From Desulfocapsa sp. (GTDB taxonomy: Bacteria; Desulfobacterota; Desulfobulbia; Desulfobulbales; Desulfocapsaceae), in the NCBI GenBank assembly GCA_030145625.1, contig JAQYVF010000007.1, forward strand, positions 22,607 to 86,606: 64,000 nucleotides of DNA, in the 5' to 3' direction. The translations under genes and the position numbers were made by a program. The notes below the pieces were generated by a model that had not been told where the DNA came from, searched no databases, and worked only from the letters and a program-made list of their open reading frames with translations. Shown in pieces: positions 9,390 to 61,007 of this stretch; position 1 is the stretch's first letter; each line of letters starts with the position of its first letter.

Positions 9390-10532
9390 TTGGTGAACAA
9401 GTTATTTGAAGAAAGCTCAATTAACAACATGTTGCTAAAAAACAGATTTGTGCGAGCGGCGACTTGGGAAGGATTGGCGAGCACTGAGGGTGAAGTTACT
9501 CCTGAATTAGTAGAAATGATGACAATACTTGCCAAGGGCGGTGTGGGCCTGATTATAAGCAGCCATGCGTATGTATCGCCGGAAGGACAGGGAACACCTT
9601 GGCAACTTGGAGTGTATAAAGATGAACTTATTCCTCAACTCAAGGAGATGACTTCGGCTGTACATGAAAATGGCGCTAAAATCATAATACAACTTGCACA
9701 TGCAGGACAGTTTGCCGAGGAGAAATTGACAGATCGACCTGCCTTGGCCGTGTCAGATTCTGGCGATTTCTCCGAAAGACATATAAAGATAATAACAGAC
9801 GAGGATGTACAACGTATTGTAGTCTCTTATTCCCAAGCTGCCAAAAGAGCCCAGGAGGCTGGTTTTGATGGAATTGAAATTCATTCAGCACATGGCTACT
9901 TTTTAAGCCAGTTTTTATCACCGGCATTTAATAAACGGATTGATGAATATGGGGGCTCGATTGAAAACCGGACTAGAATACACCTTATGATTTATCACTC
10001 AATTCGGGAGGCGGTCGGAGATGATTATCCAATCTTAATAAAAATAAATTGCGGTGACTTTATAGCGGATGGAATAACAATTGAGGATTCTCTGTACATG
10101 GCAAAATTGTTTTCTCAAACAGGGTTCGATGCAATTGAAGTAAGTGGCGGTATAATAAGGACTGGAAAACTTTCTCCGAGTCGGCCTGGAATAAGTACTG
10201 TAGGTAAAGAGGCTTATTTTCAAGAGTATGCGTCCAGATTTAAAAAAGAAATCAGTACACCATTGATCCTGGTTGGCGGTTTGAGATCCTTTGAGGTTGC
10301 CGAAAAAATCATCTTTGATGGGATTGCCGACTATATTTCTATGAGTCGACCATTTATCAGGGACCCTGACCTGATAAATCGATGGGAAAAGGGAGATTTG
10401 CGCAAGGCAGAATGTAAATCTGACAACTTATGCTTTACTCCTGGGTTCGGAGGTAAAGGAATATATTGTGTTACCAGAGAAATCGAACAAAAGAAGACAT
10501 CCAGCCAGGATATATGCAGTCGGTTCAGTTAA
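9390..10532 (+). CDS. NADH:flavin oxidoreductase, Old Yellow Enzyme family
   Basis: OYE motifs QLAHAGQ and EIHSAHGYFLSQFLSP. AGGAGG lies upstream of the TTG/GTG start. Confidence 0.85.
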   Translation: MVNKLFEESSINNMLLKNRFVRAATWEGLASTEGEVTPELVEMMTILAKGGVGLIISSHAYVSPEGQGTPWQLGVYKDELIPQLKEMTSAVHENGAKIIIQLAHAGQFAEEKLTDRPALAVSDSGDFSERHIKIITDEDVQRIVVSYSQAAKRAQEAGFDGIEIHSAHGYFLSQFLSPAFNKRIDEYGGSIENRTRIHLMIYHSIREAVGDDYPILIKINCGDFIADGITIEDSLYMAKLFSQTGFDAIEVSGGIIRTGKLSPSRPGISTVGKEAYFQEYASRFKKEISTPLILVGGLRSFEVAEKIIFDGIADYISMSRPFIRDPDLINRWEKGDLRKAECKSDNLCFTPGFGGKGIYCVTREIEQKKTSSQDICSRFS

Positions 10533-10658
10533 TAACGATTGGATAACGTGTTTGAGGACATCAGCCTTTCAACTAGTGTCATGGCAGGTCAATGTGTCGG
10601 AATTTAGAAGAGTCGCATCTGAGATAAGCGTGAGCCCAGGGATTACCAGTTAAGACCT

Positions 10659-24976: not shown

Positions 24977-24980
24977 TTAT

Positions 24981-25130
24981 AGGGTACCTTGAAAAATTAG
25001 ATTTTTTGTTCAAGATCGAGGAACAGACGAAAAAATAAGCGCAGCATATAGTTTATATGTGAGCATTAATTTTTTGACTGTGACGAAGAGTTTGGGCAAA
25101 AAGGCAATTTTTCGTGGTGGCCTATAGTCT
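24981..25130. repeat. MITE-like palindromic dispersed repeat, copy A (150 bp) in the secA 3' region
   Basis: The 5' arm 24981-25021 matches 58214-58254 at 38/41. The 3' arm 25083-25130 matches 58343-58390 at 41/48 (hand counts). The termini are inverted repeats (AGGGTACCTTGAAAAATT versus the reverse complement of AATTTTTCGTGGTGGCCT). Confidence 0.65.
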
Positions 25131-43728: not shown

Positions 43729-44982
43729 ATGAAATTATCGCTTTTTGGAGAACAGTTCACCAGCGGCGCAGGTATTCTCAGCTTGATGGACGATCTTGGC
43801 AATGCCTTGGCTACTGGTGGGGATGACATGATCATGATGGGTGGCGGTAATCCGGGACATGTCCCTGGTTTTCAAGAGGTAATGCAGAAACGACTGCAGG
43901 CCCTTGCTGCTGATACGGAATCGTTTCAAAAACTCATCGGCATTTATGATCCGCCTCAGGGGGAGAAGGATTTCGGAGGGGCACTTGTAAAACTTCTACG
44001 CCGTGAATATGGCTGGGATCTTGGTCCTGAGAATATCTGTCTTACCAATGGCAGTCAGGCAGGTTTTTTTCTTCTCTTTAATATGTTCGCGGGCCCATAT
44101 CGGGAAGGTGAAAGCAAAAAGATACGTCTTCCCTTAGCGCCGGAATATATAGGGTATGCCGATCTTGGCCATGGCGATGACTTTTTCATCTCAAGTAGAC
44201 CCCGTATTGAGTTTCTGGAAGATCGGCTTTTTAAATATCATGTGGATTTTGCCAATCTGGACATAGGGGAAGAAACCGGTGCTATCTGCGTTTCACGGCC
44301 GACCAATCCTACTGGCAATGTGCTGACCGATGAGGAAATCGCAGCCCTTGATATTCTTGCCCGCAAGCATGATGTGCCCCTGATTTTGGATAACGCCTAT
44401 GGTGTACCATTTCCAGGCATAATCTATACTGAGGCCAAGCCTGTCTGGAATGAGAATATCATTGTCTGCCTTTCTCTATCTAAACTTGGTCTGCCTGCAA
44501 CCAGGACAGGAATTATTGTCGCCCGTAAAGAGATAATCAAGGCGGTATCCGGAATGAACGCTATCATGAACCTTGCTACAGGAAGTTTTGGGGCAATGCT
44601 AGCCCAGGAAATGGTGGCCAGCGGGGAGGTTCTGAACCTTAGTCGGGACGTGATCAGGCCATTTTATCAAAATAAAATGGAAAAGGCTGTTGCCCTGTTT
44701 CAGAAGGAATTGGAAGGCACGCCTTTCAGGATTCACAAACCGGAAGGGGCAATGTTTCTCTGGCTTTGGTTCGAAGATCTCCCTATCACCAGCCATAACC
44801 TGTATGAAAGATTGAAAGCAAGAAATGTCCTGGTGGTATCCGGGCATTTCTTTTTCCCCGGTTTGGAACATCCGTGGGATCACTGTAATGAATGCATCCG
44901 GGTGACCTATTCCCAGGATGAAGAACAGGTAGCAAAGGGGATCAAAATTATTGCAGAGGAAGTTAAAAAGGCTTATTCCTGA
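43729..44982 (+). CDS. avtA: Valine--pyruvate aminotransferase-like PLP enzyme
   Basis: An AvtA-like N-terminus (FGEQFTSGAGILSLMDDLG) and the PLP-lysine region LSLSKLGLPATRTG. Confidence 0.8.
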   Translation: MKLSLFGEQFTSGAGILSLMDDLGNALATGGDDMIMMGGGNPGHVPGFQEVMQKRLQALAADTESFQKLIGIYDPPQGEKDFGGALVKLLRREYGWDLGPENICLTNGSQAGFFLLFNMFAGPYREGESKKIRLPLAPEYIGYADLGHGDDFFISSRPRIEFLEDRLFKYHVDFANLDIGEETGAICVSRPTNPTGNVLTDEEIAALDILARKHDVPLILDNAYGVPFPGIIYTEAKPVWNENIIVCLSLSKLGLPATRTGIIVARKEIIKAVSGMNAIMNLATGSFGAMLAQEMVASGEVLNLSRDVIRPFYQNKMEKAVALFQKELEGTPFRIHKPEGAMFLWLWFEDLPITSHNLYERLKARNVLVVSGHFFFPGLEHPWDHCNECIRVTYSQDEEQVAKGIKIIAEEVKKAYS

Positions 44983-45034
44983 TCTTAAAGCACTATTGCG
45001 CAAAAGAGGATTGTCCGTGCAGAGTAGAAAGAAA

Positions 45035-46735
45035 ATGATTGGACTGTTGTGTGGGATCTCGCTTCTCTGGTCAGGCATGGTCCAGGCGAAGTGTCTGGAA
45101 GGTGATTGTCGAAACGGATCCGGTATCTTTGTTAATGATGATGGCCGACGTTATAACGGTCAATTTAAAGATGGACGACTTCATGGCAAGGGTGTACTCA
45201 CTTTTCCAGATGGAACCGAGTATAGAGGAGAGCTAAGCCAGGGGAAATATAGTGGAAAAGGAATCCTTGTTAGCCCGGACGGTCGAAGATATGAGGGCGA
45301 ATTTCGTGATAACGTCATCGACGGAAAAGGAATGCTACTTTTCAAAGATGGGGCGAAGTACACAGGTGAATTTGTTCTTGGCCGCTATCATGGAACAGGA
45401 ACGCTGAGTTATCCCGATGGTCGACATTACCAGGGGGAATTCAGGAGTAATCTGATTGAAGGACAGGGCAAGCTGCTCTATTCGGATGGAACCTGGTTCG
45501 AGGGAGAGTTTCACAACGGTAAGCCTGCAGGCAGAGGAGTAAAAACGTATCCCGACGGAAGTAGGTATACAGGTGACTTTTACCGAGGGCAACGCCAGGG
45601 GCAAGGGTTGTGGGAAGGAGCTGATAACAATCGTTATGATGGGTATTTTAATAGAGATGCCTATAACGGTGAGGGCATTCTCCTCTATGGTGATGGTAGA
45701 AAGTACAGTGGAGAGTTTCTCGATAATTTCAGGCATGGGGAAGGGGAATTACGCTATGTCGATAAGACCCGCTATGTAGGGCAGTTTAATCGCGGCAAGA
45801 AGGAAGGGAATGGTATTCTCTATTATCCTGATTCCAGTCGTTACGAGGGAGAGTTCTATCAGGATAAACGGCATGGTCATGGAAAACATTTCTATGCCGA
45901 CGGTTCCCGTTATGAGGGTACCTTTCGTGATGGAAAAGCCAATGGGCAGGGGATTCTAATTGGTGCCGATGGACGAAAATTCAGTGGAGAGTTTTTAGAC
46001 GGCAAACCTGTTAAAAATGAGGAATCTCATGAAGAGATTGCTCAGGTCCGGGAAGTGGAAGAGCAGAAGCCGGTAGCAGTGACCAAAAAGGCGGAGACAT
46101 CCCTGTCGCCAGTAGTGAAAAAGCATATCCTCCATCAGGGACGAGTGTGCGATGCAGGCAATAAGAAACCGCTGGATGGAAGGGTCGAGTTCCTCTATCC
46201 CAATGGAATGCTGTATAAGGGTGAGATGAAAAATGGTCTCATGGATGGAAACGGGAGGATCGAATACGCCAGTGGTGATGTTTACGAAGGAGACATCCGG
46301 AAAGGAAAACTTCATGGTACCGGGATCTATGAATACAGTAATGGACGCAGGTATGAGGGAACTTTTGTTCAGGGAAAAAAAGAAGGGACGGGAATATTCA
46401 GTTACGCTGATGGCTCCCGTTATGCCGGTGGTTTGAAAAATGATCATTTCTCCGGTGAGGGAAGCTATTTTTTCAGTGACGGAAGTCATTATCAAGGTCA
46501 TTTTAAGACAGGGCGTTTTGAGGGCAGGGGGAAGCTCACCTATGCAGATGGCAGTGTTATCACCGGAGAGTTTCGTGATGACATGCCCCATGGTAAGGCT
46601 CAGCTTCTTTCAGCAGACGGCAGTCGTTATGAGGGAAGATTTGCAAAAGGACGGAGAAACGGCTTCGGTAAGCTGGTTCTGGCCAATGGGAAGGTGTATG
46701 AAGGGCAATTTCGGGATGATGAGTTTGTCCCTTGA
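45035..46735 (+). CDS. MORN-repeat protein with signal peptide
   Basis: Signal MIGLLCGISLLWSGMVQA. There are 13 plus 8 YxGxFxxGxxxGxG repeats (hand count), split by a charged linker (NEESHEEIAQVREVEEQKP). The track start at 44951 overlaps avtA. Confidence 0.8.
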   Translation: MIGLLCGISLLWSGMVQAKCLEGDCRNGSGIFVNDDGRRYNGQFKDGRLHGKGVLTFPDGTEYRGELSQGKYSGKGILVSPDGRRYEGEFRDNVIDGKGMLLFKDGAKYTGEFVLGRYHGTGTLSYPDGRHYQGEFRSNLIEGQGKLLYSDGTWFEGEFHNGKPAGRGVKTYPDGSRYTGDFYRGQRQGQGLWEGADNNRYDGYFNRDAYNGEGILLYGDGRKYSGEFLDNFRHGEGELRYVDKTRYVGQFNRGKKEGNGILYYPDSSRYEGEFYQDKRHGHGKHFYADGSRYEGTFRDGKANGQGILIGADGRKFSGEFLDGKPVKNEESHEEIAQVREVEEQKPVAVTKKAETSLSPVVKKHILHQGRVCDAGNKKPLDGRVEFLYPNGMLYKGEMKNGLMDGNGRIEYASGDVYEGDIRKGKLHGTGIYEYSNGRRYEGTFVQGKKEGTGIFSYADGSRYAGGLKNDHFSGEGSYFFSDGSHYQGHFKTGRFEGRGKLTYADGSVITGEFRDDMPHGKAQLLSADGSRYEGRFAKGRRNGFGKLVLANGKVYEGQFRDDEFVP

Positions 46736-52784: not shown

Positions 52785-52847
52785 AGATTTTAATGTAAGA
52801 GACTGATAGAAGCGATTTATTTCCAAAAAACAACAAGGAGACTTGTG

Positions 52848-53303
52848 ATGAGAAAAGTATTTGCAGGAGTGGCTTTGGTCTTAATTATAGGATTCACCGG
52901 ATTTTATCAAGCATCTGCCAATTGGGGGCAGGGGAGGATGATGGGTGGGTGTTCAACAGATTGTCCTCAGAATAGAGGCTTGAGTAGTGCTCCTATGGAT
53001 GCCGAAACCACTGCGAAGTTTGAAAAGTTTTTCGACGAAACTCTTGATCTACGTAAACAGATTGTTGTTAAGCGTGCAGAAAAACAAGCATTGATGCGTG
53101 CGGAAGAACCGGATTCTGCTACTGTCGGAAAGGTAACCGGGGAATTGTTTGATCTCCGCAATATTATGCGATCAAAGGCTAAGGCAGCAGGGCTGCAGGG
53201 CGTTGGTGGAATGGGTTGTCGCAGTGGTAATTGTGATGGATCTGGTTCTTCCAATTGCGGCAGAGGCATGAGGGGTGGACAAGGTATGATGAAAATGCAG
53301 TAA
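52848..53303 (+). CDS. Periplasmic Spy/CpxP/ZraP-family protein (heavy-metal / envelope-stress chaperone-like) with Gly/Cys/Met-rich tail
   Basis: Signal peptide, then a helical core KRAEKQALMRAEEPDSATVGKVTGELFDLRN that parallels ZraP, and a tail GGMGCRSGNCDGSGSSNCGRGMRGGQGMMKMQ. AAGGAG lies 7 nt upstream of the ATG. Confidence 0.7.
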   Translation: MRKVFAGVALVLIIGFTGFYQASANWGQGRMMGGCSTDCPQNRGLSSAPMDAETTAKFEKFFDETLDLRKQIVVKRAEKQALMRAEEPDSATVGKVTGELFDLRNIMRSKAKAAGLQGVGGMGCRSGNCDGSGSSNCGRGMRGGQGMMKMQ

Positions 53304-53343
53304 TTTTTTTTCTTTTTTCAAGGTGGCCTTCACTTCCTTTTGA

Positions 53344-53375
53344 AACCCGACAGGCTTTTCCTGGCGGGTTTTTTT
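53344..53375 (+). terminator. Rho-independent terminator after the ZraP-like gene
   Basis: AACCCGACAGG-CTTTTC-CCTGGCGGGTT followed by TTTTT. Confidence 0.7.
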
Positions 53376-53656
53376 GTAGCTGGTTCTCTGCTCGATCTTT
53401 TTGTTGACCTGAGATCTGATAGCCGGTGTTGATTGTAAAGGGTAACTGTCTGACATTATGGTGAGATAAATTTTAGGTGACAAGTGTGGAATTATGAGTG
53501 GCAAGTGGTTTTGCTGGTAAAAATGACCATCTTTTTGATAGGATAAGCAGAGTTGAATTTAGTCCTCATGCTTGAGGGTATCTTGCAAGAAGTATGATCA
53601 AGCCGGTGACAATCTAGCAGACTGAAAATTTTAACCTGAGGTTAGGGTAAGTTACT

Positions 53657-54496
53657 ATGAGTATACGTAAAATCACATCATTGACAATGTTGATAACCTT
53701 TGTTTTAGAGGTGATTACTTCTGTTGTCCTTTATATTGTTCCACATGGCCGGGTGGCTTACTGGGCTGATTGGCATCTGTTTGGTTTGAGTAAAACCGAG
53801 TGGGCCAATCAACATATCAATCTTGGCGTACTTTTTTTCCTCGCTGCTTTTGTTCACGTTTTCTTCAATTGGAGACCGATAGTTGCATATCTAAAAAACA
53901 GGGCCAAAGAGGTGAGAATTGTCACTGTATCCTTTAATGTTGCCTTGTTGTTCTCACTGGTGGTAGCTGTTGGAACCTATTTTGAGGTACCACCCATGAG
54001 TACTGTTATTCATTTCAGTAACTCGATCAAGGATAATGCTTCAAAGGTATACGGGGAACCCCCTTATGGTCATGCAGAACTTTCTTCTCTGAAGCTTTTC
54101 ACAAAGAAACTGGGTCTTGATCTTGAACAAAGTATTACGCTTCTTGAGCATGCAGGGATTGTTGTGGAGGACAGCTCCATGACTTTGAAAGATATTTCTT
54201 CTGCCAATAATCTGCCTCCACAAAAGATTTATTCTTTAATTGAGGCTGCAAAAGTGGAAGAGACATTAGGGGGGGGAGTGGTTTTTCCCGACTCGCCCAT
54301 GCCGGGTTTTGGTAATAAGACTATGGCGGAGATCTGTGCCGAATTTAATCTTCATTTTCCTATGATCAAACAGGGATTTGCTGAAAAAGGTGTTCAGATA
54401 AAAGCTGAGCAGACTATTAAGGAAATAGCTGCTGCACACGATACTGAAGGTATAGCAATTTTTAATCTTTTGCATGGAATTGTTACAGGGGATTAG
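53657..54496 (+). CDS. DUF4405-like membrane protein with soluble C-terminal extension
   Basis: N-terminal TM helices with conserved His (IVPHGRVAYWADWH, FVHVFFNWRP). The C-terminal half, about 130 aa, is soluble. Confidence 0.55.
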   Translation: MSIRKITSLTMLITFVLEVITSVVLYIVPHGRVAYWADWHLFGLSKTEWANQHINLGVLFFLAAFVHVFFNWRPIVAYLKNRAKEVRIVTVSFNVALLFSLVVAVGTYFEVPPMSTVIHFSNSIKDNASKVYGEPPYGHAELSSLKLFTKKLGLDLEQSITLLEHAGIVVEDSSMTLKDISSANNLPPQKIYSLIEAAKVEETLGGGVVFPDSPMPGFGNKTMAEICAEFNLHFPMIKQGFAEKGVQIKAEQTIKEIAAAHDTEGIAIFNLLHGIVTGD

Positions 54497-54505
54497 ATTG
54501 TTTTC

Positions 54506-55042
54506 ATGATGAATATACAGAAAATTTCTTTTATTTTGATACTGCTGCTCGGTGTATTTCCAGCCAGAGGTTATGCTGAATTTCTCTATGGGCAAGTGGT
54601 TGAGGTCAATAGAGATGCGCAAGAGTTTGTACTCGTCTCTCTTTCGCCAGATAAAGAAGATACAGATTTGTCAGGAAATACTGCTCGAATCAGGGTGAAG
54701 GCTATGGGTGCAATGTTGCCCCAATCCGAGGAAGGAGATTCTTTTTTACCCGGATGTGTACAGGTAGGCAAAAGAGTGAGGGTTTGGGGGGAAACACCTG
54801 CTTCAGGAGCATCTTTTCTGGCAACAGATGTTCGTGGTTGTGGAGGGATGGGGTGTAGTGATCCCACAGGCGTCCGATCTCGACTCCAAAAAGACAAAAA
54901 ACGTAACTATTGGAATCAAGGCACAGACAGCAGTGATGTTGATGGAGGTGGCAGTACGGGTAGAGGGAATGGGCGTGGCAACGGAGGTGGCGGTGGCGGT
55001 AGCGGTAACGGTGGTGGTGGTGGTGGAGGGCGTGGCCGATGA
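54506..55042 (+). CDS. Secreted protein with CGGMGC motif and Gly/Asn/Arg-rich C-terminal tail
   Basis: Signal MMNIQKISFILILLLGVFPARGYA and tail GRGNGRGNGGGGGGSGNGGGGGGGRGR. The stop overlaps the kinase start (ATGA). Confidence 0.6.
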   Translation: MMNIQKISFILILLLGVFPARGYAEFLYGQVVEVNRDAQEFVLVSLSPDKEDTDLSGNTARIRVKAMGAMLPQSEEGDSFLPGCVQVGKRVRVWGETPASGASFLATDVRGCGGMGCSDPTGVRSRLQKDKKRNYWNQGTDSSDVDGGGSTGRGNGRGNGGGGGGSGNGGGGGGGRGR

Positions 55043-56595
55043 GCTCACTCCCAAGCTGGAAGAGTAATTTAATCGTTTTTATTTTATTAACATTGCTGGT
55101 TGTTTCATATTTTTTTTATGAGCAACAGAGTATCACAAAAAGTTATCAGCACCATTCTCGTGTACATTCTGAGATCCTTGCAGCTGTTGTGGAACTCAAT
55201 ATTCGCAATGCCTATCTGACTCGTGATACCATAGAAACACTTTTAACGGGTAGTTTGGCAAACAGTGGTCGTTTTGTTGCCTACCTTAATGATATCGATC
55301 CGTTTTCAGCAGGCGAACTCGCCGCCTTTGCAAGAGAAGCTGGACTTGCCGGCATAGGTATTCATGATTTGAAAAACGATCTGCTGGTGAGTGGACCGCA
55401 GGGTTGGCTTCCGGCAGCAGGACAGATTGGTCATTCGGCCAATGAAGGACTCAAGTATCTGCCGGAGCAAGAGCTCTATCTTTACACTCTGTGCACTTCT
55501 TCATCCTGCATACTTGTGGGGCTGGATACAGGTGAAATTGAAAAGATGCTAGATGATGTCAGTGTTGAACGACTTCTCGGCCTGTTAAGTAATCTGGCTG
55601 GAATTGCCTATGTAAATATTGTAACGGCAGAAGGCTCTCACCCATCTGTTGCAGAATATTCCAGTTTCTCTTCTAGCTCATCTGGAGGTGTGGTTGTAGA
55701 GACCATCCTCAATTTCCAAGAGAAGGATATTGTAGTTGGCCTGTATGCAGATCTTTTTTTTGAACGAATGACACAGCTTCGGAGAAGATTTGGTGTCTTT
55801 TTTTCTCTACTTTTTCTTGCTGGCATTCTCTCTTCCTGGTGGCTTTATCGTGTACAGCGGCAGCGGCTTGAAGATGCAAGAGATTTTGAAAGAAGGATGG
55901 CGCGTCAGCATGAGGCTGCAGCCTTAGGAAGAACCACGGTTACAATAACCCATGAAATGCGGAACCCTCTTAATGCCATAGGAATAGGGCTGCAACGTCT
56001 TGAACTTGAGGCCGCTGAACTCAGTTCAGAACACCGGGGCCTGGTGACAGGGATGAGAGAAGCGGTCAGTCGTACTAATGGAATTATTTCCCGTTTGCGT
56101 CAATATGTGCATTCCTTTGAGTTGGCTTATCAGGAAATTTGTCTGGTAGACCTCCTTGGCTCCCTGGTTAATCTCTACGCTCAGCAGTGTAAGACACAGG
56201 GGATTGAGGTGCAGATTAGAGGAGAAAAAAATTGTGTTGTTCAGGGAGATAAAAATTTATTGGGAGAGGTTTTTGAAAATCTCGTAAAAAATGGAATAGA
56301 GGCCCAGCCTGATGGCGGCTATTTGGACATTGATGTAACAATGAAGGAGCAGGAGTGTGTTGTTTTGCTGCGAAACGGTGGTCAGCTTCCCGATACAAAG
56401 AAACAGGTATTACTTCTGGAACCTTTTTTCACCACCAAGGCCAAGGGAACCGGTCTCGGCCTTGCTATCAGTAAGAAGATTGTGGACGCCCATGGCGGAA
56501 GATTAGAGTTACAGGTAGATAGAGATGAGCAGGTTTTTCGAGTGGTGGTTACGTTGTTGAGGCGACCAAGTCACATGAAGTCTTTGAAAACTTGA
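55039..56595 (+). CDS. Sensor histidine kinase (two TM segments with a periplasmic sensing region, ZraS-like architecture)
   Basis: H-box ITHEMRNPLNAI, N-box FENLVKNGIEA and G-box GTGLGLAISKKIV. Confidence 0.85.
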   Translation: MSSLPSWKSNLIVFILLTLLVVSYFFYEQQSITKSYQHHSRVHSEILAAVVELNIRNAYLTRDTIETLLTGSLANSGRFVAYLNDIDPFSAGELAAFAREAGLAGIGIHDLKNDLLVSGPQGWLPAAGQIGHSANEGLKYLPEQELYLYTLCTSSSCILVGLDTGEIEKMLDDVSVERLLGLLSNLAGIAYVNIVTAEGSHPSVAEYSSFSSSSSGGVVVETILNFQEKDIVVGLYADLFFERMTQLRRRFGVFFSLLFLAGILSSWWLYRVQRQRLEDARDFERRMARQHEAAALGRTTVTITHEMRNPLNAIGIGLQRLELEAAELSSEHRGLVTGMREAVSRTNGIISRLRQYVHSFELAYQEICLVDLLGSLVNLYAQQCKTQGIEVQIRGEKNCVVQGDKNLLGEVFENLVKNGIEAQPDGGYLDIDVTMKEQECVVLLRNGGQLPDTKKQVLLLEPFFTTKAKGTGLGLAISKKIVDAHGGRLELQVDRDEQVFRVVVTLLRRPSHMKSLKT

Positions 56596-56607
56596 AGGAC
56601 TAGGAGC

Positions 56608-57945
56608 GTGATGAAGATACTGATTGTTGATGATGAAGAAATGCAACGGGATATGCTGGGGGGATTTCTTAAGAACAAGGGTTATGATGTTCTAACCGCA
56701 GCAGGGGGAAGAGAGGCGTTGCAGATTTTTTCCAGGGAACCTGTCCAACTGGTCCTGGTCGATCATCGCATGGATGGAATGAACGGTGATGAGCTGCTGG
56801 AAAAAATGAAAGAGATTTCTCCTCTGCTGCGGGCCATCATGATCACAGCTTTTGGTTCGGTTACCACTGCCGTTCGTGTTATGCAGCTCGGTGCAGATGA
56901 TTTCCTGGAGAAGCCGGTGGATCTTTCTGTCTTGTTACAGAAGATTGAACAGATAGAACAGAACCTGGCTGTGAATGAGGAGGCGGAGGAGGTTGCAGAA
57001 TCTCTAGAAATAGCAAAGGTCCCCTTTGATATAATTGGTTCGAGTAAGGCCATGCATGAGGTGCTTTCCCTTGGACATCGTATTGCGCCAACTGACTGGA
57101 CTGCTCTTATCCGTGGAGAAACAGGTACCGGTAAGGAATTGGTAGCCAAAATGATTCACCTTCTGAGTCCACGTAAACAGGGGCTTTTTGTGGAAGTAAA
57201 TTGCGCTGCTATTCCAGAGAACCTGTTTGAGTCTGAGCTCTTTGGTCATGAAAAAGGTGCTTTTACCGGAGCCTCAACCACAAGGCGCGGTCGTTTTGAA
57301 CAGGCTCGGGGAGGGACTATTTTTCTTGATGAGGTTGGGGAGCTTCCTCTGCAGTTGCAGGCCAAGTTGCTCAGAACTTTACAGGAAAAGAAGATCAGCA
57401 GGGTTGGAAGTGAAAAAGAGATTTCTGTGGATATTCGTGTTTTGTCGGCAACAAATCGTGATCTGAAAAAGATGGTTGAAAAAGGAACATTTCGTGAAGA
57501 TCTCTATTTTCGATTGAATGTCCTGGAAATTATCGTCCCACCTCTGCGCGAGAGGCGTTCTGATATTCCTGAACTTGGGGAATTTTTTCTAAGTAAGCAC
57601 TGCGGTGCCCGCAAGGTGAGTATCTCCAGTGATGCCATGAATCAGCTGGTGAAATATGATTTCCCTGGAAATGTGAGGGAACTTGAACATTTATTGCAAC
57701 GTCTTATCACTTTGGTGCGTGGTAAGGTTATTCGCTTTGAAGATCTCCCTCCAGAAGTTCGTGATAAACAGGTGAGTGGAGGAAAACTCAGTCAGCGGCT
57801 TGCAGAGGTTGAAAAGAAGATGCTGGTCCATGCCCTGGAAGAACATGATTGGGTGCAGACCAGAGCTGCAGAGTCCCTGGGTATCAGTGAGAGAGTCTTG
57901 CGATATAAGATGGGGAAGGCTGGAATTGATCGTGGAAATGGTTAA
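56608..57945 (+). CDS. Sigma54-dependent response regulator (NtrC/ZraR family: REC, AAA+ and Fis-type HTH)
   Basis: REC domain (ILIVDDEE...VDHRMDGMNG), Walker A GETGTGKE, the GAFTGA loop (EKGAFTGA), and a C-terminal HTH AAESLGISERVLRYKM. Confidence 0.92.
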   Translation: MMKILIVDDEEMQRDMLGGFLKNKGYDVLTAAGGREALQIFSREPVQLVLVDHRMDGMNGDELLEKMKEISPLLRAIMITAFGSVTTAVRVMQLGADDFLEKPVDLSVLLQKIEQIEQNLAVNEEAEEVAESLEIAKVPFDIIGSSKAMHEVLSLGHRIAPTDWTALIRGETGTGKELVAKMIHLLSPRKQGLFVEVNCAAIPENLFESELFGHEKGAFTGASTTRRGRFEQARGGTIFLDEVGELPLQLQAKLLRTLQEKKISRVGSEKEISVDIRVLSATNRDLKKMVEKGTFREDLYFRLNVLEIIVPPLRERRSDIPELGEFFLSKHCGARKVSISSDAMNQLVKYDFPGNVRELEHLLQRLITLVRGKVIRFEDLPPEVRDKQVSGGKLSQRLAEVEKKMLVHALEEHDWVQTRAAESLGISERVLRYKMGKAGIDRGNG

Positions 57946-58040: not shown

Positions 58041-58067
58041 TTGACATAAATGTGTTGATCGTATAAT
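58041..58067 (+). promoter_or_regulatory. Candidate sigma70 promoter of the riboswitch transcript
   Basis: Consensus hexamers TTGACA and TATAAT, but with only a 15-nt spacer. The -10 hexamer ends 11 nt before riboswitch P1. Confidence 0.45.
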
Positions 58068-58078
58068 GTGAAATTGTG

Positions 58079-58464
58079 TTCAGGTGTCTGTAACAGGACT
58101 GAAAAGGGAACTTCGTGAGAATCGAAGACGGGCCCGCCGCTGTAACCGAGGACAAATCCTGCATCCATGCCACTGACAGCATTTTAATGCCTTGGAAATG
58201 AATTGTTAATTCTAGGGTACCTTGAAAAATTAGAATTTTAGTTCAAAATCGAGGCATGAGAGAAATTTTACCGTAGGCGCCCCGCAGGAAGTGCCCTTGG
58301 GGTGCATATATTTGATATTCCGAGGATAAAATTTTTCTCATAACGAAGAGTTTGGGCGAAAAGGCAATTTTGCAAGGTGACCTCTATTCTATCGAGGGCA
58401 AAAGAAATCCTGATCGGGAAGGCGCAGAGGGAGATTGATTCGGAAGTCAGAAGACCTGCCTGAA
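58079..58464 (+). promoter_or_regulatory. Cobalamin riboswitch-like leader, interrupted by the 177-bp repeat at 58214-58390
   Basis: Conserved core strings appear in order: GGTGTC, AAAAGGGAAC, CGTGAGAATCG, ACGGGCCCGCCGCTGTAA, GCCACTG, then (after the insert) CGGGAAGGC and the B12 box AAGTCAGAAGACCTGCC. P1 can form between TTCAGG (58079-84) and CCTGAA (58459-64). Confidence 0.7.
58214..58390. repeat. MITE-like palindromic dispersed repeat, copy B (177 bp) inside the riboswitch
   Basis: It shares both arms with copy A (24981-25130). Terminal inverted repeats are AGGGTACCTTGAAAAATT and the reverse complement of AATTTTGCAAGGTGACCT. The internal GC stem is GCGCCCC...GGGGTGC. Confidence 0.65.
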
Positions 58465-58529
58465 AACTGAAGTGATTGTCGTCGAGGAATATCGACAATC
58501 AACTGATCTTGTGGATAGAAAAGGGAAAT

Positions 58530-58568
58530 CCCCGGGTCTGAATTTTTTTTCGGCTTGGGGTTTTTTTT
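58530..58568 (+). terminator. Candidate intrinsic terminator (riboswitch expression platform)
   Basis: CCCCGGGTC ... GGCTTGGGG gives a 9-bp stem including G-U pairs, followed by TTTTTTTT. Confidence 0.45.
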
Positions 58569-58645
58569 GCTCCGGGTCATTGCCGGACTGTTGGCTATTT
58601 ACATGCTGTGCAGACAACAGTCCCTTACCTGAGGAGGGTATAACA

Positions 58646-58738
58646 ATGGTTTTACGTGAACGGAGTTTGACTAAGATGGTTTTATGGCGTGTAACAGACT
58701 GGGATTCGTTTCAGCTAGTCATGCGTCACTTGTTGTAA
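58646..58738 (+). CDS. Possible 30-aa small ORF downstream of the riboswitch
   Basis: GAGGAGGG lies 7 nt upstream of the ATG. It translates to MVLRERSLTKMVLWRVTDWDSFQLVMRHLL. No homology recognised, so this is very tentative. Confidence 0.2.
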   Translation: MVLRERSLTKMVLWRVTDWDSFQLVMRHLL

Positions 58739-58744
58739 AATCAG

Positions 58745-58777
58745 GGCCAAGTCTGCATTTTAGGTGCAGACTTGGCC
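58745..58777. terminator. Bidirectional hairpin at the 3' end of feoB
   Basis: GGCCAAGTCTGCA-TTTTAGG-TGCAGACTTGGCC forms a 13-bp perfect stem. Confidence 0.65.
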
Positions 58778-58787
58778 TCCTGTATTT

Positions 58788-61007
58788 TTATCCCAGTAGA
58801 TTGCCTATCTGAAAAACAAGAAAGGCCGCGAGAAAGGCAAAAACAGTATTAAAGGCCATGGAGAAAAAGGCCCACTTCCAGGAACCTGCTTCTTTGGCAA
58901 TACAGACCACGGTGACAAAGCAGGGGGCGTAAAACATGATGAAAATCAATACGGCTACCGCCACGACACTATTCCAATGCGGGTCTCTGACCAGTCGTTC
59001 TCCAAGTGAATCAGATGCATCAACTTCCACTTCACCCATTGAGTAAGCAGTCCCTAGAGTGGAGATAATTACCTCTTTTGCTGCAAATCCTCCAAGTAGT
59101 GCGATATTTGTCCGCCAGTCGAATCCGGCAAGGCTTGAGACCGGCTCAAGAAAGGTTCCGATTTTACCGGCAATTGAGTATCGCAAACCGGCTCCGGATT
59201 CTTCCTGATCAATGATTGTCAGCTCTGCTTTCAGTTGTTTCCCTTTTTTCGACAGTTCCCCTGTTTCCTGATTATAAGCGAGAAGTTCTGATCTGATTGA
59301 TTCAGGATAGCTCTGGCTTATTGCAGTCCGTTTTGCTGAAAAATTATCCTGTTGGGATTCCGGAAGGCCGGGATAGGTCATTAGTGCCCAGAGAATAATG
59401 GAGATTCCAAGAATGACGGTTCCCGCCTTCTTGATATATTGCCAGGTACGCTCCCAGGTATGGATGACCAGTCCTCTCAGTGTGGGGAAACGGTAGGGCG
59501 GCAGTTCCATGACAAAGGGTGTTGCTTCTCCCTTGAGTACCGTCATACGCAGGAACTTTGCAACCACAAGGGCAACAAACCAGGCCAACATGGTAAAAAG
59601 GAACATGTAGAGGGCCTGATGATCGGTAAAAAATGCACCGATAAGCAGAACCAGAACAGGAACCTTTGCCCCACAGTTCATAAAGGGAACCGTGAGCAGT
59701 GTGGCCATGCGTTCTTTGGGGGAACGAAGGGTCCTTGTTGCCATGACTCCGGGAACTGCACAACCGCCGGCTATTCCACCGGATACAATAAAAGGCATTA
59801 CCGAGGAACCGTGCAGGCCGAAAATACGAAAAATGCGGTCCATCATAAACGCTACGCGAGCCAGATAACCGGAATCTTCAAGGATAGCAATGCCAAAAAA
59901 CATAAACATAATAAGGGGAACAAAACCGAGAACACCACCAACGCCATCAATAACACCTGAGATGAGCATGGATTTAAGCGGACCGTCGGGAAGAGTCGTA
60001 TCAGCTATTCCACCCATCCAACCGAAAAGAGATTCCATCCAGGAAACCGGCAGTTCACTCCAGGAAAAGGTGAACTGGTAAAGGCCAAAGAGGATGAGCA
60101 GCATGATAACCGGACCAATGAGGCGATTGGTGAGAACTTTGTCAATTTTATCTGAAGTGTAGAGACGATCAATATCAAATTTATGGGTAAGGACTCCCTG
60201 GCGGATAATGGATTTTATAAAGCCATAACGATGGTCGGCAATCATCGATTCCGGATACACCTCCATGGTCTTGAGCAGGTGGTCTGAAATAGCCCCCACC
60301 ATCTGTTCGAGTTTTTGGGCGATGACTGGATCAGCTTTCTGTCCAAGGGTCAGAATCTGATCATCATGCTCAAGGTATTTAATGCCTGTGTAATGGGGAG
60401 GATAGGTACTGCTGAGAAATGAAGAATCAGAAATGATGGAGACGATCTTCATGAGGACCTCATCAAGATCGTCTCCGTAGGAAATATCCTTTGGATTCCA
60501 TATCTTTTCAGATTGAGCCACTTCAATGGCCTGCTTGATTAACTCTTCTGTCCCTTGACCCGACCTGGCAATGATGGGCACAACCTGAACACCGAGGAGT
60601 TCTGCCAATTTCTCACAGCGAACCGTTATCCCACGATCTTTTGCCACATCAATCATGTTCAGGGCAATAATCAGAGGAACTCCCATTTCGAGAAACTGGG
60701 TTGTGAGATACAGGTTTCTTTCTAAATTAGAGGCATCAACAATGTTTATGACAACGTCGGGCCGGTTGTTGGTGAGAAAATCTCTACTTACTATTTCCTC
60801 TACTGAATAGGCAGTCAGCGAATAGGTACCGGGGAGGTCGGTAATAGTAACTTTTTGGTCTTTATAAGTGAAATGTCCTCTTTTGTGATCTACCGTAATT
60901 CCAGGGTAATTTCCTACATGCTGTCTGGATCCGGTAAGTTCGTTGAAGAGGGTGGTCTTGCCGGCGTTAGGATTGCCGGCCAGTGCCATGGTAATGGGTT
61001 TTTTCAT
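58788..61007 (-). CDS. feoB: Ferrous iron transporter FeoB
   Basis: N-terminal G-domain GNPNAGKTTLFN, DLPGTYSL and NMIDVA. The C-terminal part is a polytopic permease. Confidence 0.95.
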   Translation of the reverse strand: MKKPITMALAGNPNAGKTTLFNELTGSRQHVGNYPGITVDHKRGHFTYKDQKVTITDLPGTYSLTAYSVEEIVSRDFLTNNRPDVVINIVDASNLERNLYLTTQFLEMGVPLIIALNMIDVAKDRGITVRCEKLAELLGVQVVPIIARSGQGTEELIKQAIEVAQSEKIWNPKDISYGDDLDEVLMKIVSIISDSSFLSSTYPPHYTGIKYLEHDDQILTLGQKADPVIAQKLEQMVGAISDHLLKTMEVYPESMIADHRYGFIKSIIRQGVLTHKFDIDRLYTSDKIDKVLTNRLIGPVIMLLILFGLYQFTFSWSELPVSWMESLFGWMGGIADTTLPDGPLKSMLISGVIDGVGGVLGFVPLIMFMFFGIAILEDSGYLARVAFMMDRIFRIFGLHGSSVMPFIVSGGIAGGCAVPGVMATRTLRSPKERMATLLTVPFMNCGAKVPVLVLLIGAFFTDHQALYMFLFTMLAWFVALVVAKFLRMTVLKGEATPFVMELPPYRFPTLRGLVIHTWERTWQYIKKAGTVILGISIILWALMTYPGLPESQQDNFSAKRTAISQSYPESIRSELLAYNQETGELSKKGKQLKAELTIIDQEESGAGLRYSIAGKIGTFLEPVSSLAGFDWRTNIALLGGFAAKEVIISTLGTAYSMGEVEVDASDSLGERLVRDPHWNSVVAVAVLIFIMFYAPCFVTVVCIAKEAGSWKWAFFSMAFNTVFAFLAAFLVFQIGNLLG

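What the first reader, a model, noticed from the sequence alone, without database searches (positions are those of the whole stretch)
58041..58777. Cobalamin riboswitch split by a MITE-like insertion and lacking a recognisable cargo gene
What the sequence shows:
- Downstream of a TTGACA-N15-TATAAT promoter, the plus strand carries the ordered conserved strings of the cobalamin riboswitch class: AAAAGGGAAC, GTGAGAATCG, ACGGGCCCGCCGCTGTAA and GCCACTG.
- The remaining strings, CGGGAAGGC and the B12 box AAGTCAGAAGACCTGCC, appear only about 250-290 nt later.
- The gap contains a 177-bp palindromic repeat whose second copy sits after secA.
- P1 (TTCAGG / CCTGAA) closes the whole structure.
- Flanking segments CAGCATTT (58168-58175, directly after GCCACTGA) and AAATCCTG (58404-58411) can pair with one mismatch. 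The insertion would then sit in a peripheral hairpin loop and might be tolerated.

The B12 box is followed by a 9-bp hairpin (58473-58501) and a terminator-like hairpin plus T8 (58530-58568). After that there is only a 30-codon ORF with a strong RBS before the convergent feoB terminator. No transporter or cobalamin enzyme gene is present.

Established knowledge: B12 riboswitches that control noncoding or antisense RNAs exist (Listeria AspocR and Rli55, Enterococcus EutX).

Inference, three options: this is a riboswitch-controlled ncRNA or small peptide, a riboswitch-controlled antisense transcript entering feoB, or a decaying relic.
Basis: partly seen in the sequence, partly recalled or inferred. 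Interest (0 to 1): 0.7.

Follow-up and report, generated by a model that had tools for sequence, protein, structure and literature searches.

The report
MITE-split B12 riboswitch controlling a micro-protein
A genuine vitamin-B12 riboswitch has been split by a small mobile element landing in one of its outer loops, and what it controls is not "nothing" but a conserved, unannotated 30-amino-acid protein that in related bacteria is the first gene of the B12-import operon.

Summary
Window 58079-58464 (+) is a cobalamin riboswitch (RF00174) cut in two by a 168-bp MITE (58215-58382, flanked by TCTA).

- Rfam scores only the 5' half (37.1 bits) and mis-aligns it.
- Ten related Desulfocapsa/Desulfobulbales genomes carry the uninterrupted orthologue (105-121 bits).
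- Metagenome locus L086 is a natural empty site (103.7 bits).
- In a sequence-profile proxy, excision turns two hits (110 and 44.9 bits) into one of 156.5-156.8 bits.
- The predicted fold keeps every aptamer helix; the MITE forms its own hairpin on the apical loop of the P6 extension.

The "no cargo" reading is wrong in substance. The 30-codon ORF (58646-58738) is conserved, has a strong SD, and evolves as a coding sequence (dN/dS about 0.2). Of 41 loci that encode it, 39 have RF00174 ending 129-299 nt upstream. Between the two lies a conserved intrinsic terminator with compensatory changes.

In at least seven of those loci the ORF overlaps the start of a TonB-dependent receptor gene. In L107, L108 and L111 the operon continues with tonB and btuFCD-like genes. 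The family has no Pfam, NCBIfam or PDB relative.

The antisense-into-feoB and decaying-relic readings are not supported. Whether the split aptamer still senses B12 cannot be decided in silico.

The parts
58041..58067 (+). Sigma-70-type promoter: TTGACA 58041-46, 15-nt spacer, TATAAT 58062-67 (or TAATGT 58064-69 with a 17-nt spacer)
   Evidence: Read directly. TTGACA is conserved at the same distance in the orthologues printed. The consensus scan does not list it because it only accepts spacers of 16-18 nt.
58079..58210 (+). Cobalamin riboswitch aptamer, 5' part: P1 5' strand TTCAGG, P2, core AAAAGGGAAC, the GTGAGAATC hairpin, L5 GGGCCCGCC, GCCACTG 58169-75, and the 5' arm of the extended P6-extension hairpin
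   Evidence: RF00174 at 37.1 bits. 58075-58173 is identical to L086 and 98% identical to L001. Covered by the nhmmer hit to profile positions 9-131, 110 bits.
58211..58214 (.). Target-site duplication TCTA, left copy (alternative: ATTCTA 58209-14)
   Evidence: The secA-side copy has TATA/TATA in the same position.
58215..58382 (.). 168-bp MITE-like palindromic element: imperfect terminal inverted repeats GGGTACCTTGAAAAATT / AATTTTGCAAGGTGACC, no ORF, and a nested GC-rich hairpin module at 58264-58305
   Evidence: Absent from the empty-site relative L086 and from 10 orthologous riboswitches. Folds alone at -58.2 kcal/mol (z = -4.0 for 58200-58400). Family copies at window 24982-25122 and in L024, L009, L016 and L018.
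58383..58386 (.). Target-site duplication TCTA, right copy (alternative: ATTCTA 58386-91)
58387..58464 (+). Aptamer, 3' part: 3' arm of the P6-extension hairpin, CGGGAAGGC 58415-23, B12 box 58444-60, P1 3' strand CCTGAA 58459-64
   Evidence: Aligns column for column with the 3' halves of full-length RF00174 hits. nhmmer hit to profile 122-181, 44.9 bits.
58471..58504 (+). Conserved expression-platform hairpin: variable stem, conserved loop GUCG[UCA]GGAAUAUC; possible P13/kissing-loop partner
   Evidence: -11.7 kcal/mol. 7 pairs, all with compensatory changes in at least one of 16 orthologues.
58508..58536 (+). Candidate antiterminator: CTTGTGGAT 58508-16 pairing with ATCCCCGGG 58528-36, the 5' arm of the terminator
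   Evidence: 95.9% of cells pair in 16 orthologues, but there is almost no covariation. This is an inference.
58523..58568 (+). Leader intrinsic terminator: A-tract, stem CCCCGGGTCTGAA / TTCGGCTTGGGG, T8
   Evidence: -19.6 kcal/mol. Present in every orthologue, with compensatory changes (for example AU:8 / GC:6 at one pair).
58631..58638 (+). Shine-Dalgarno sequence GAGGAGGG, 7 nt before the ATG
   Evidence: A GGAGG-type SD is present in all homologous loci.
58646..58738 (+). 30-codon ORF MVLRERSLTKMVLWRVTDWDSFQLVMRHLL: the conserved cargo, an unannotated small-protein family
   Evidence: 27 distinct orthologous ORFs; dN/dS about 0.2; third-position entropy 1.28 against 0.83 and 0.65; the other frames are closed in 23-24 of 27.
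58744..58790 (.). Bidirectional terminator shared with convergent feoB (58788-61007, minus strand)
   Evidence: 16-bp stem found on both strands; -27.7 kcal/mol.
24978..25126 (.). Second MITE copy (24982-25122) with TATA/TATA flanks, 6 nt after the secA stop codon

Best explanation
This is an RF00174 cobalamin riboswitch that works as a transcription-termination OFF switch for a stand-alone 30-amino-acid protein gene.

Proposed mechanism:
1. A sigma-70-type promoter at 58041 starts a leader whose aptamer (58079-58464) senses B12.
2. With B12 bound, the conserved intrinsic terminator (58523-58568) forms and the transcript stops.
3. Without B12, an alternative pairing that uses the terminator's 5' arm lets RNA polymerase read into the SD and ORF (58631-58738). 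The transcript then ends at the terminator shared with convergent feoB.

So the micro-protein is made when B12 is scarce. In sister lineages the same ORF is translationally coupled to the first gene of a btuB-tonB-btuFCD-type operon. It therefore belongs to the B12-scavenging regulon, probably as a trans-acting small protein.

In this genome a 168-bp MITE has inserted, with a TCTA duplication, into the apical loop of the already long P6-extension hairpin. Because the element is a self-folding palindrome, it most likely forms its own hairpin and leaves the aptamer core able to fold.

What is shown: the riboswitch identity, the insertion and empty site, the conservation and coding nature of the ORF, its riboswitch linkage, and the conserved terminator.

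What is inferred: OFF polarity, the antiterminator, retention of B12 sensing despite the MITE, and the protein's role.
For: Riboswitch identity:
- RF00174 at 37.1 bits in the window.
- Uninterrupted orthologues at 105-121 bits in ten related genomes, nine of them at the same site next to the feoB 3' end.
- A G-C to A-U compensatory change (CCGG/CCGG to CCGA/UCGG) keeps a helix paired in the window and in L086.

Insertion:
- L086 has the same extended hairpin without the element and scores 103.7 bits.
- There are flanking direct repeats and terminal inverted repeats, and family copies occur in other Desulfobulbales genomes.
- The nhmmer profile gives two hits on the intact sequence (110 and 44.9 bits) and one hit of 156.5-156.8 bits after excision, against 159.3 for L086.
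- The MFE fold of 58075-58470 keeps exactly the aptamer pairs of the excised sequence, with the MITE as a separate branch.

Cargo:
- The 30-aa ORF is conserved in all nine feoB-linked orthologous loci.
- A peptide-only metagenome search gave 26 loci. 24 have RF00174 on the same strand ending 129-299 nt upstream.
- Five further loci found through the protein database all have it too.
- Coding signature: dN/dS about 0.2, third-position variability highest, other frames closed.
- It is followed by, and overlaps, a TonB-dependent receptor gene in L094, L095, L099, L107, L108, L109 and L111. TonB, BtuF-like, FecCD and ABC genes follow in L107, L108 and L111.
- A homologous riboswitch in L009 directly precedes a TonB-dependent receptor plus a BtuF-like gene.

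Platform:
- The terminator and the upstream hairpin are conserved, with compensatory changes.
Against: - No experiment bears on any of this: ligand binding, transcription and translation are all untested.
- The CM itself could not be run on the excised sequence.
- The MITE adds 168 nt between the two aptamer halves. This could upset co-transcriptional folding kinetics.
- The window's copy of the MITE contains a GC-rich hairpin followed by AUAUAUUUGA, which the scan flags as terminator-like (58291-58305). It could stop transcription inside the aptamer.
- The antiterminator has pairing potential but essentially no covariation support.
- The protein has no detectable relatives of known function.
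- Its helical hydrophobic moment is unremarkable.
- Two homologues, L105 and L106, have no riboswitch.
Confidence: 0.78

Rival explanations
1. The riboswitch identity and cargo are as above, but in this genome the MITE has broken regulation. Either the aptamer cannot assemble in time, so the platform stays in its default read-through state and the micro-protein is made constitutively. Or the element's internal GC hairpin plus U-rich tail terminates transcription, so the gene is silenced. On this reading it is a freshly disabled switch, not yet decayed.
For: - The two aptamer halves are 168 nt further apart than in the empty-site relative.
- There is a terminator-like site inside the MITE at 58291-58305.
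- The leader terminator stem in the window has more G-U pairs than its relatives.
- The aptamer core is equally intact in L086, so its intactness here does not prove selection after the insertion.
Against: - The MFE fold keeps all aptamer helices, with the MITE as an independent hairpin.
- The site is the apical loop of a hairpin that is already hypervariable in length. L086 carries a 62-nt loop and still scores 103.7 bits. L002 tolerates a 30-nt insertion elsewhere.
- The two MITE copies in the window are only about 68% identical. This argues against very recent activity, yet the ORF, SD, terminator and every conserved aptamer nucleotide are intact.
Confidence: 0.3
2. The 30-codon ORF is only a cis-acting leader or upstream ORF. 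Its translation serves to load ribosomes onto the downstream btuB-type gene, as with the uORFs of the M. tuberculosis B12 riboswitches. The stand-alone copy in Desulfocapsa-like genomes would then be a leftover with no function of its own.
For: - In L094, L095, L107-L109 and L111 the ORF's stop overlaps the receptor gene's start by 4-10 nt, which is typical of translational coupling.
- The C-terminal extensions of those long forms are not conserved.
- Kipkorir et al. 2024 (PMC11260477) describe B12-riboswitch-controlled uORFs that are needed for expression of the downstream gene.
Against: - The amino-acid sequence of the 30-residue core is conserved across lineages (invariant E5, T9, K10, D18-W19-D20, Q23, R27, L30), with dN/dS about 0.2. 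A mere ribosome-loading ORF needs no specific sequence.
- In at least nine Desulfocapsa-type genomes, and in several other contexts, the ORF has its own terminator and no downstream gene on the same strand, yet it keeps its riboswitch, SD, length and sequence.
- Riboswitch-less stand-alone homologues exist (L105, L106).
Confidence: 0.2
3. The riboswitch controls a non-coding RNA or an antisense transcript running into feoB, of the AspocR/Rli55/EutX type. The ORF would be incidental.
For: - The unit is convergent with feoB in the window and in nine related genomes.
Against: - The region shows codon-phased substitution, and the alternative frames are closed.
- Every copy has a strong SD at the right spacing.
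- A 16-bp GC-rich bidirectional terminator lies between the ORF and feoB.
- The same unit is found next to unrelated convergent genes (FAD oxidoreductase, Ppx/GppA, Fe-S protein) or heading btuB-type operons.
- No Rfam family matches the region.
Confidence: 0.04

Closest known systems
Cobalamin riboswitch, Rfam RF00174 (for example the E. coli/Salmonella btuB leader and transcription-terminating B12 riboswitches of other bacteria)
   Same: - All conserved core strings, the B12 box and the P1 closure are present.
- Orthologues score 100-121 bits.
- It is followed by an intrinsic terminator.
- In sister lineages it controls a TonB-dependent receptor/btuFCD-type operon, the canonical cargo.
   Different: - Here the aptamer is physically interrupted by a 168-bp mobile element in the P6-extension apical loop.
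- The only gene under its control is a 30-codon ORF.
B12-riboswitch-controlled uORFs of Mycobacterium tuberculosis metE and ppe2 (Kipkorir et al. 2024, PMC11260477)
   Same: - A short translated ORF lies between or within a B12 riboswitch and the main gene.
- In the long-form relatives the stop and start overlap, which suggests coupling or reinitiation.
   Different: - No sequence relationship was seen.
- The present ORF has a conserved amino-acid sequence across genera.
- In the window and many relatives it stands alone with its own terminator, so it cannot act only in cis.
Riboswitch-regulated non-coding RNAs (Listeria AspocR and Rli55, Enterococcus EutX)
   Same: A B12 riboswitch without a conventional enzyme or transporter gene downstream; a short transcript whose length depends on B12.
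   Different: Those products are non-coding and act by antisense pairing or protein sequestration. Here the product region is a protein-coding ORF by substitution pattern, SD and frame conservation.
Bacterial MITEs / palindromic intergenic repeats (for example Correia, RUP, ERIC elements; from own knowledge)
   Same: Size of about 140-170 bp, terminal inverted repeats, short target duplication, no coding capacity, multiple diverged copies in intergenic sites of several genomes, and transcription as part of host RNAs.
   Different: - It is inserted inside a riboswitch aptamer. Two literature searches found no described case.
- The family itself is unnamed, and its transposase partner is unknown.

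Membership tests
Cobalamin riboswitch (RF00174) | Covariance-model score at or above the gathering threshold (31.5 bits) | tested here: met
   37.1 bits for 58060-58180, but the alignment is truncated and mis-registered because of the insert. Uninterrupted orthologues score 105-121 bits. The empty-site relative scores 103.7 bits.
Cobalamin riboswitch (RF00174) | Full-length contiguous match once the insert is removed | tested here: inconclusive
   The CM cannot be run on an edited sequence with these tools. The proxy is an nhmmer profile of 24 orthologues: two hits on the intact sequence (110 and 44.9 bits), one hit of 156.5-156.8 bits after excision, and 159.3 bits for L086.
Cobalamin riboswitch (RF00174) | B12 box and conserved core strings in order, closed by P1 | tested here: met
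   AAGTCAGAAGACCTGCC 58444-60; GCCACTG 58169-75; CGGGAAGGC 58415-23; TTCAGG 58079-84 pairing with CCTGAA 58459-64. All align with the orthologues' Rfam-annotated columns, and all helices are present in the MFE fold.
Cobalamin riboswitch (RF00174) | Binds a cobalamin and changes expression | not testable with these tools
   Needs in-line probing or ITC, and Term-seq or reporter assays.
MITE (non-autonomous transposable element) | Terminal inverted repeats, small size, no ORF | tested here: met
   168 bp; TIR GGGTACCTTGAAAAATT / AATTTTGCAAGGTGACC; near-perfect palindrome at -58.2 kcal/mol. No ORF of 80 aa or more lies within it.
MITE (non-autonomous transposable element) | Target-site duplication and an empty site in a relative | tested here: met
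   TCTA/TCTA here and TATA/TATA at the secA-side copy. L086 has the same hairpin loop without the element. The length of the duplication (2, 4 or 6 bp) is not settled.
MITE (non-autonomous transposable element) | Multiple dispersed copies | tested here: met
   Two copies in the window. Copies also occur in L024 (Desulfofustis glycolicus), L009, L016 (Desulfosediminicola flagellatus) and L018/L096.
MITE (non-autonomous transposable element) | Cognate autonomous element/transposase with matching ends | not tested
   No search for a parent IS element was made.
Riboswitch-controlled ncRNA (AspocR/Rli55/EutX type) | The regulated product is non-coding | tested here: not met
   The product region has a conserved SD, start codon and 30-codon frame; dN/dS about 0.2; other frames closed.
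Riboswitch-coupled leader/uORF (M. tuberculosis metE/ppe2 type) | The short ORF is immediately upstream of, or overlapping, the regulated main gene | tested here: not met
   In the window the ORF is followed by a terminator and convergent feoB. The feature is met in relatives L094, L095, L107-L109 and L111.
Any described protein family for the 30-aa product | Significant match in Pfam, NCBIfam or PDB | tested here: not met
   No hit passed threshold. Database members are named only 'hypothetical protein'. Gene callers mostly miss it: only 3 true hits among 1.84 billion representative proteins.

The most novel reading that the evidence does not exclude
The 30-residue protein (core ..E.S.TK..L...KDWDSFQ..MR..L) is a previously unrecognised, trans-acting component of the B12-starvation response in Desulfobulbales. 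It might, for example, modulate TonB-dependent B12 uptake or a B12-dependent enzyme. It has been kept under its own cobalamin riboswitch even after separating from the btuB-tonB-btuFCD-type operon. In addition, the window shows a natural riboswitch that still works with a 168-nt mobile element folded out of a peripheral aptamer loop.
Probability: 0.4. Interest if true: 0.75.

Novelty: new variant of a known kind. Interest (0 to 1): 0.64.

Why it matters
Three points.

1. It resolves an apparently orphan riboswitch. The cargo is a micro-protein that annotation pipelines miss, which warns against reading "no gene downstream" as ncRNA or relic.

2. It defines a small-protein family with a strong regulatory signature. 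39 of 41 loci sit behind a B12 riboswitch, and in several lineages the ORF heads the B12 import operon. That gives a concrete, testable candidate for an unknown player in cobalamin scavenging in sulfur-cycling Desulfobulbales.

3. A MITE inside an aptamer, with an empty-site relative available, is a ready-made natural experiment. It can show how much extra RNA a riboswitch's peripheral loop tolerates, and how mobile elements can rewire or break RNA sensors.

Tried and rejected
- **CM on the excised sequence.** Not possible. I used the natural empty site and an nhmmer proxy instead.
- **The search for homologous proteins with the 30-aa alignment.** I later searched with a 45-aa family member.
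- **Exact look-up of the window's peptide.** Not on record.
- **Pfam, NCBIfam and PDB searches of the peptide.** Only chance-level matches: Knl1_RWD_C at E 0.11, and an 11-residue DWDSFQ string in actin-like protein 6A at E 0.18.
- **phmmer against 1.84 billion representatives.** 5 hits at E up to 0.001, of which only 3 are true family members (37, 65 and 30 aa). The other two are a 5183-aa protein and a 516-aa repeat protein, judged spurious.
- **Simple amphipathic helix idea.** The AF2 single-sequence model is one helix (pLDDT 88.9). The hydrophobic moment is 0.10, below the shuffle mean of 0.21, so this was not pursued.
- **Antiterminator formed by the B12 box pairing with the terminator's 5' arm.** It looks possible in Desulfocapsa-type leaders but is not maintained in the L094/L095 type (read). 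Dropped in favour of the CTTGTGGAT / ATCCCCGGG hairpin, which itself lacks covariation.
- **Kissing-loop partner of L5.** Two G[UCA]GGA motifs are candidates. Unresolved.
- **L089 contig break inside the riboswitch as a sign of a shared MITE.** The contig starts in the loop but shows no MITE sequence, so it is uninformative.
- **L105 and L106.** Searched for any weak riboswitch at E up to 1. None found.
- **Literature.** No paper was found on this peptide, on a MITE inside a riboswitch, or on riboswitches in Desulfocapsa.
Full report
**1. What is in the window**

- A TTGACA (58041-46) / TATAAT (58062-67) promoter.
- P1 5' strand TTCAGG (58079-84).
- The ordered cobalamin-riboswitch core strings up to GCCACTG (58169-75).
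- About 240 nt later, CGGGAAGGC (58415-23), the B12 box AAGTCAGAAGACCTGCC (58444-60) and the P1 3' strand CCTGAA (58459-64).

Rfam's RF00174 is the only family above threshold in the whole 64-kb window: 58060-58180, 37.1 bits against a gathering score of 31.5. The printed alignment shows that this hit is a makeshift. It skips 68 model positions and uses AAAUCCUGC as a stand-in B12 box.

CAGCATTT is at 58177-84 and AAATCCTG at 58405-12.

**2. The insert is a MITE, and a relative shows the empty site**

The gap holds a 168-bp near-palindrome (58215-58382).
- It has terminal inverted repeats GGGTACCTTGAAAAATT / AATTTTGCAAGGTGACC.
- It is flanked by TCTA on both sides.
- A second, diverged copy (24982-25122, flanked by TATA/TATA) lies 6 nt after the stop of a bona fide SecA gene.
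- Further copies occur in Desulfofustis glycolicus, Desulfosediminicola flagellatus and other Desulfobulbales loci.

I anchored on FeoB to fetch 80 related genomic loci. The best match was an uncultured Desulfocapsa genome at 87% amino-acid identity.
- Ten of these loci carry an uninterrupted, homologous RF00174 riboswitch scoring 105-121 bits.
- Nine of the ten are at the same place, convergent with the feoB 3' end.

Metagenome locus L086 is closer still. Its aptamer 5' half is identical to window 58075-58173. It has the same unusually long P6-extension hairpin and no MITE, and it scores 103.7 bits with a 62-nt loop. That is a natural empty site.

The CM cannot be run on an edited sequence here, so I used a proxy: an nhmmer profile of 24 orthologous aptamers, leaving L086 out.

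| Sequence | Hits | Bits |
|---|---|---|
| Intact window | two (profile 9-131 and 122-181) | 110 and 44.9 |
| Window after excision | one contiguous | 156.5-156.8 |
| L086 | one contiguous | 159.3 |

ViennaRNA's MFE fold of 58075-58470 keeps exactly the aptamer pairs of the excised sequence. The MITE forms a separate hairpin on the apical loop. A G-C to A-U compensatory change (CCGG/CCGG to CCGA/UCGG) in the window and L086 relative to L001 shows the aptamer evolving as a structure.

**3. The cargo is a conserved 30-residue protein**

In all nine feoB-linked orthologous loci the riboswitch is followed by a 30-codon ORF with a GGAGG-type SD. Examples are the window's MVLRERSLTKMVLWRVTDWDSFQLVMRHLL, L027's MVIREKSITKIVLLQVKDWDSFQLLMRHFL and L021's MRISERSMTKIVLSQVKDWDSFQRILRFLL. 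Invariant residues are E5, T9, K10, D18, W19, D20, Q23, R27 and L30.

Coding evidence from 27 distinct ORFs:
- Entropy by codon position is 0.83 / 0.65 / 1.28.
- Median dN/dS is 0.20.
- The two other frames contain stops in 23-24 of the 27 sequences.

Linkage to the riboswitch:
- A metagenome scan using only the peptide found 26 loci.
- 24 of them have RF00174 on the same strand, ending 129-299 nt before the ATG. One is cut by a contig end. L101 has a second riboswitch just after the ORF.
- Five more loci reached through the protein database all have the riboswitch, at 102-119.5 bits.
- In total, 39 of 41 loci encoding the peptide carry the riboswitch. Some loci are the same organism sampled twice.
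- The two exceptions, L105 and L106, are 27-aa homologues in a low-GC organism with no riboswitch even at E up to 1.

Context gives the functional lead.
- In L094, L095, L099, L107, L108, L109 and L111 a 45-48-aa form of the ORF overlaps the start of a TonB-dependent receptor gene.
- That gene is followed by TonB or ExbB-ExbD-TonB, a BtuF-like binding protein, a FecCD permease and an ABC ATPase.
- The extra C-terminal residues of these long forms are not conserved.
- In L009 a homologous riboswitch directly precedes a TonB-dependent receptor and a BtuF-like gene, without the peptide.
- Elsewhere the ORF stands alone, convergent with unrelated genes: feoB, an FAD oxidoreductase, Ppx/GppA, an Fe-S protein, or a Gate-domain protein next to CbiK.

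The family has no Pfam, NCBIfam or PDB relative. It is mostly missed by gene callers. Where it is called, it is named only "hypothetical protein". A single-sequence AlphaFold model is one helix (pLDDT 88.9), but the hydrophobic moment is unremarkable. I draw no structural conclusion.

**4. How it most likely works**

Between the aptamer and the ORF every orthologue has the same platform:
- a hairpin with a covarying stem and a conserved loop (window 58471-58504);
- a conserved single-stranded stretch, CUGAUCUUGUGGAUA;
- an intrinsic terminator with compensatory changes and a U-tract (window 58523-58568, -19.6 kcal/mol).

This is the layout of a transcription-termination switch. By analogy with almost all cobalamin riboswitches (established knowledge), B12 binding should favour the terminator, making it an OFF switch. 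The micro-protein would then be made under B12 scarcity, together with the uptake operon in the lineages where the two are fused.

A candidate antiterminator (58508-16 pairing with 58528-36) can form in 95.9% of cells across 16 orthologues but has almost no covariation. It is an inference.

The ORF's transcript ends at a 16-bp bidirectional terminator shared with feoB. This argues against antisense action on feoB.

**5. Is the split switch still working?**

This cannot be decided in silico.

For tolerance:
- The site is the apical loop of a hairpin that already varies from about 20 to 62 nt among relatives.
- The element self-folds.
- All functional parts are intact even though the two MITE copies in the window are only about 68% alike.

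Against:
- The extra 168 nt delays completion of the aptamer.
- The window's copy carries a nested GC hairpin followed by a U-rich stretch, which the scan flags as terminator-like (58291-58305).

I put about 0.55-0.6 on retained B12 control.

**6. Comparison and verdict**

- It is a member of RF00174 by score, motifs and orthology. Ligand binding is untested.
- The insert meets the MITE criteria that could be tested: inverted repeats, target duplication, an empty site and multiple copies.
- It is not a riboswitch-controlled ncRNA of the AspocR/Rli55/EutX kind, because the product region is coding.
- In the window it is not a uORF of the M. tuberculosis metE/ppe2 kind (PMC11260477), because no downstream gene exists on that strand. 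The long-form relatives do resemble that arrangement.

Literature searches found no description of this peptide or of a MITE inside a riboswitch.

Overall this is a known riboswitch class in a new configuration. Its cargo is a stand-alone, conserved, unannotated micro-protein tied to B12 uptake, and a mobile element sits in the aptamer. I rate it a new variant of a known kind, of moderate to high interest.

Noticed in passing
L018 about 10391-10536 (minus strand); the same in L096 3178-3323: In Candidatus Desulfatifera sulfidica a MITE of the same family is inserted in the same transcription unit but at a different point, between the leader terminator and the SD of the 30-aa ORF. This is an independent hit on the same small locus.
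   Followed up: partly
window 58264-58305; L002 4159-4188; L037 about 1378-1415: The window's MITE copy carries a nested GC-rich hairpin module (GGCGCCCCGCAGGAAGTGCCCTTGGGGTGC) that the other copies of the family lack. The same module occurs inside other palindromic repeats in two related genomes. With its AUAUAUUUGA tail it is flagged as terminator-like.
   Followed up: partly
L101 820-1518: The arrangement is riboswitch, then the 31-aa ORF, then a second full RF00174 riboswitch (1340-1518, cut by the contig end). The micro-protein unit therefore sits directly in front of another B12-regulated unit.
   Followed up: no
L105 3998-4081; L106 476-559: 27-aa homologues (MEQTFCKITIFLITDWDSFQKAMRKCL) occur in a low-GC organism between a HIT-family gene and pgk/tpiA. 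They have their own terminator and no riboswitch, even at E up to 1.
   Followed up: partly
L002 10497-10712 (also L082 1-216): This orthologous aptamer has a 30-nt extra hairpin (AGCCCGGTAAACGAGAAGTAAGCTGGGATT) between P2 and the AAAAGGGAAC core and still scores 110 bits. It is another tolerated insertion in this riboswitch lineage.
   Followed up: no
window 52845-57945: A ZraP/ZraSR-like unit lies upstream: a Metal_resist (PF13801) periplasmic protein, a DUF4405 protein, a 178-aa ORF, a histidine kinase and a sigma-54-dependent response regulator. In L086 the Metal_resist-like gene lies only about 650 nt from the riboswitch, so the intervening four genes are specific to the window's lineage or were lost in L086.
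   Followed up: partly
window 45458-46578: Four diverged 59-nt direct repeats (61-71% identity) lie inside the 594-aa ORF 44951-46735, probably encoding a protein repeat (MORN-like?). A similar repeat protein lies upstream of the riboswitch in L088.
   Followed up: no
L110 6001-8543: A stand-alone 48-aa family member with its riboswitch (119.5 bits) lies convergent with a Gate-domain (PF07670) membrane protein gene and next to a CbiK cobaltochelatase gene.
   Followed up: no
protein cluster 4 (P0014, 1002 aa): A 1002-aa gene call clusters with the 45-aa peptides. It may be a frame-fused call of the peptide plus the TonB-dependent receptor, or a real fusion.
   Followed up: no
L027 4921-4993: A borderline c-di-GMP-I riboswitch hit (35.2 bits against a gathering score of 35) about 3 kb from feoB in a Desulfocapsa MAG.
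   Followed up: no
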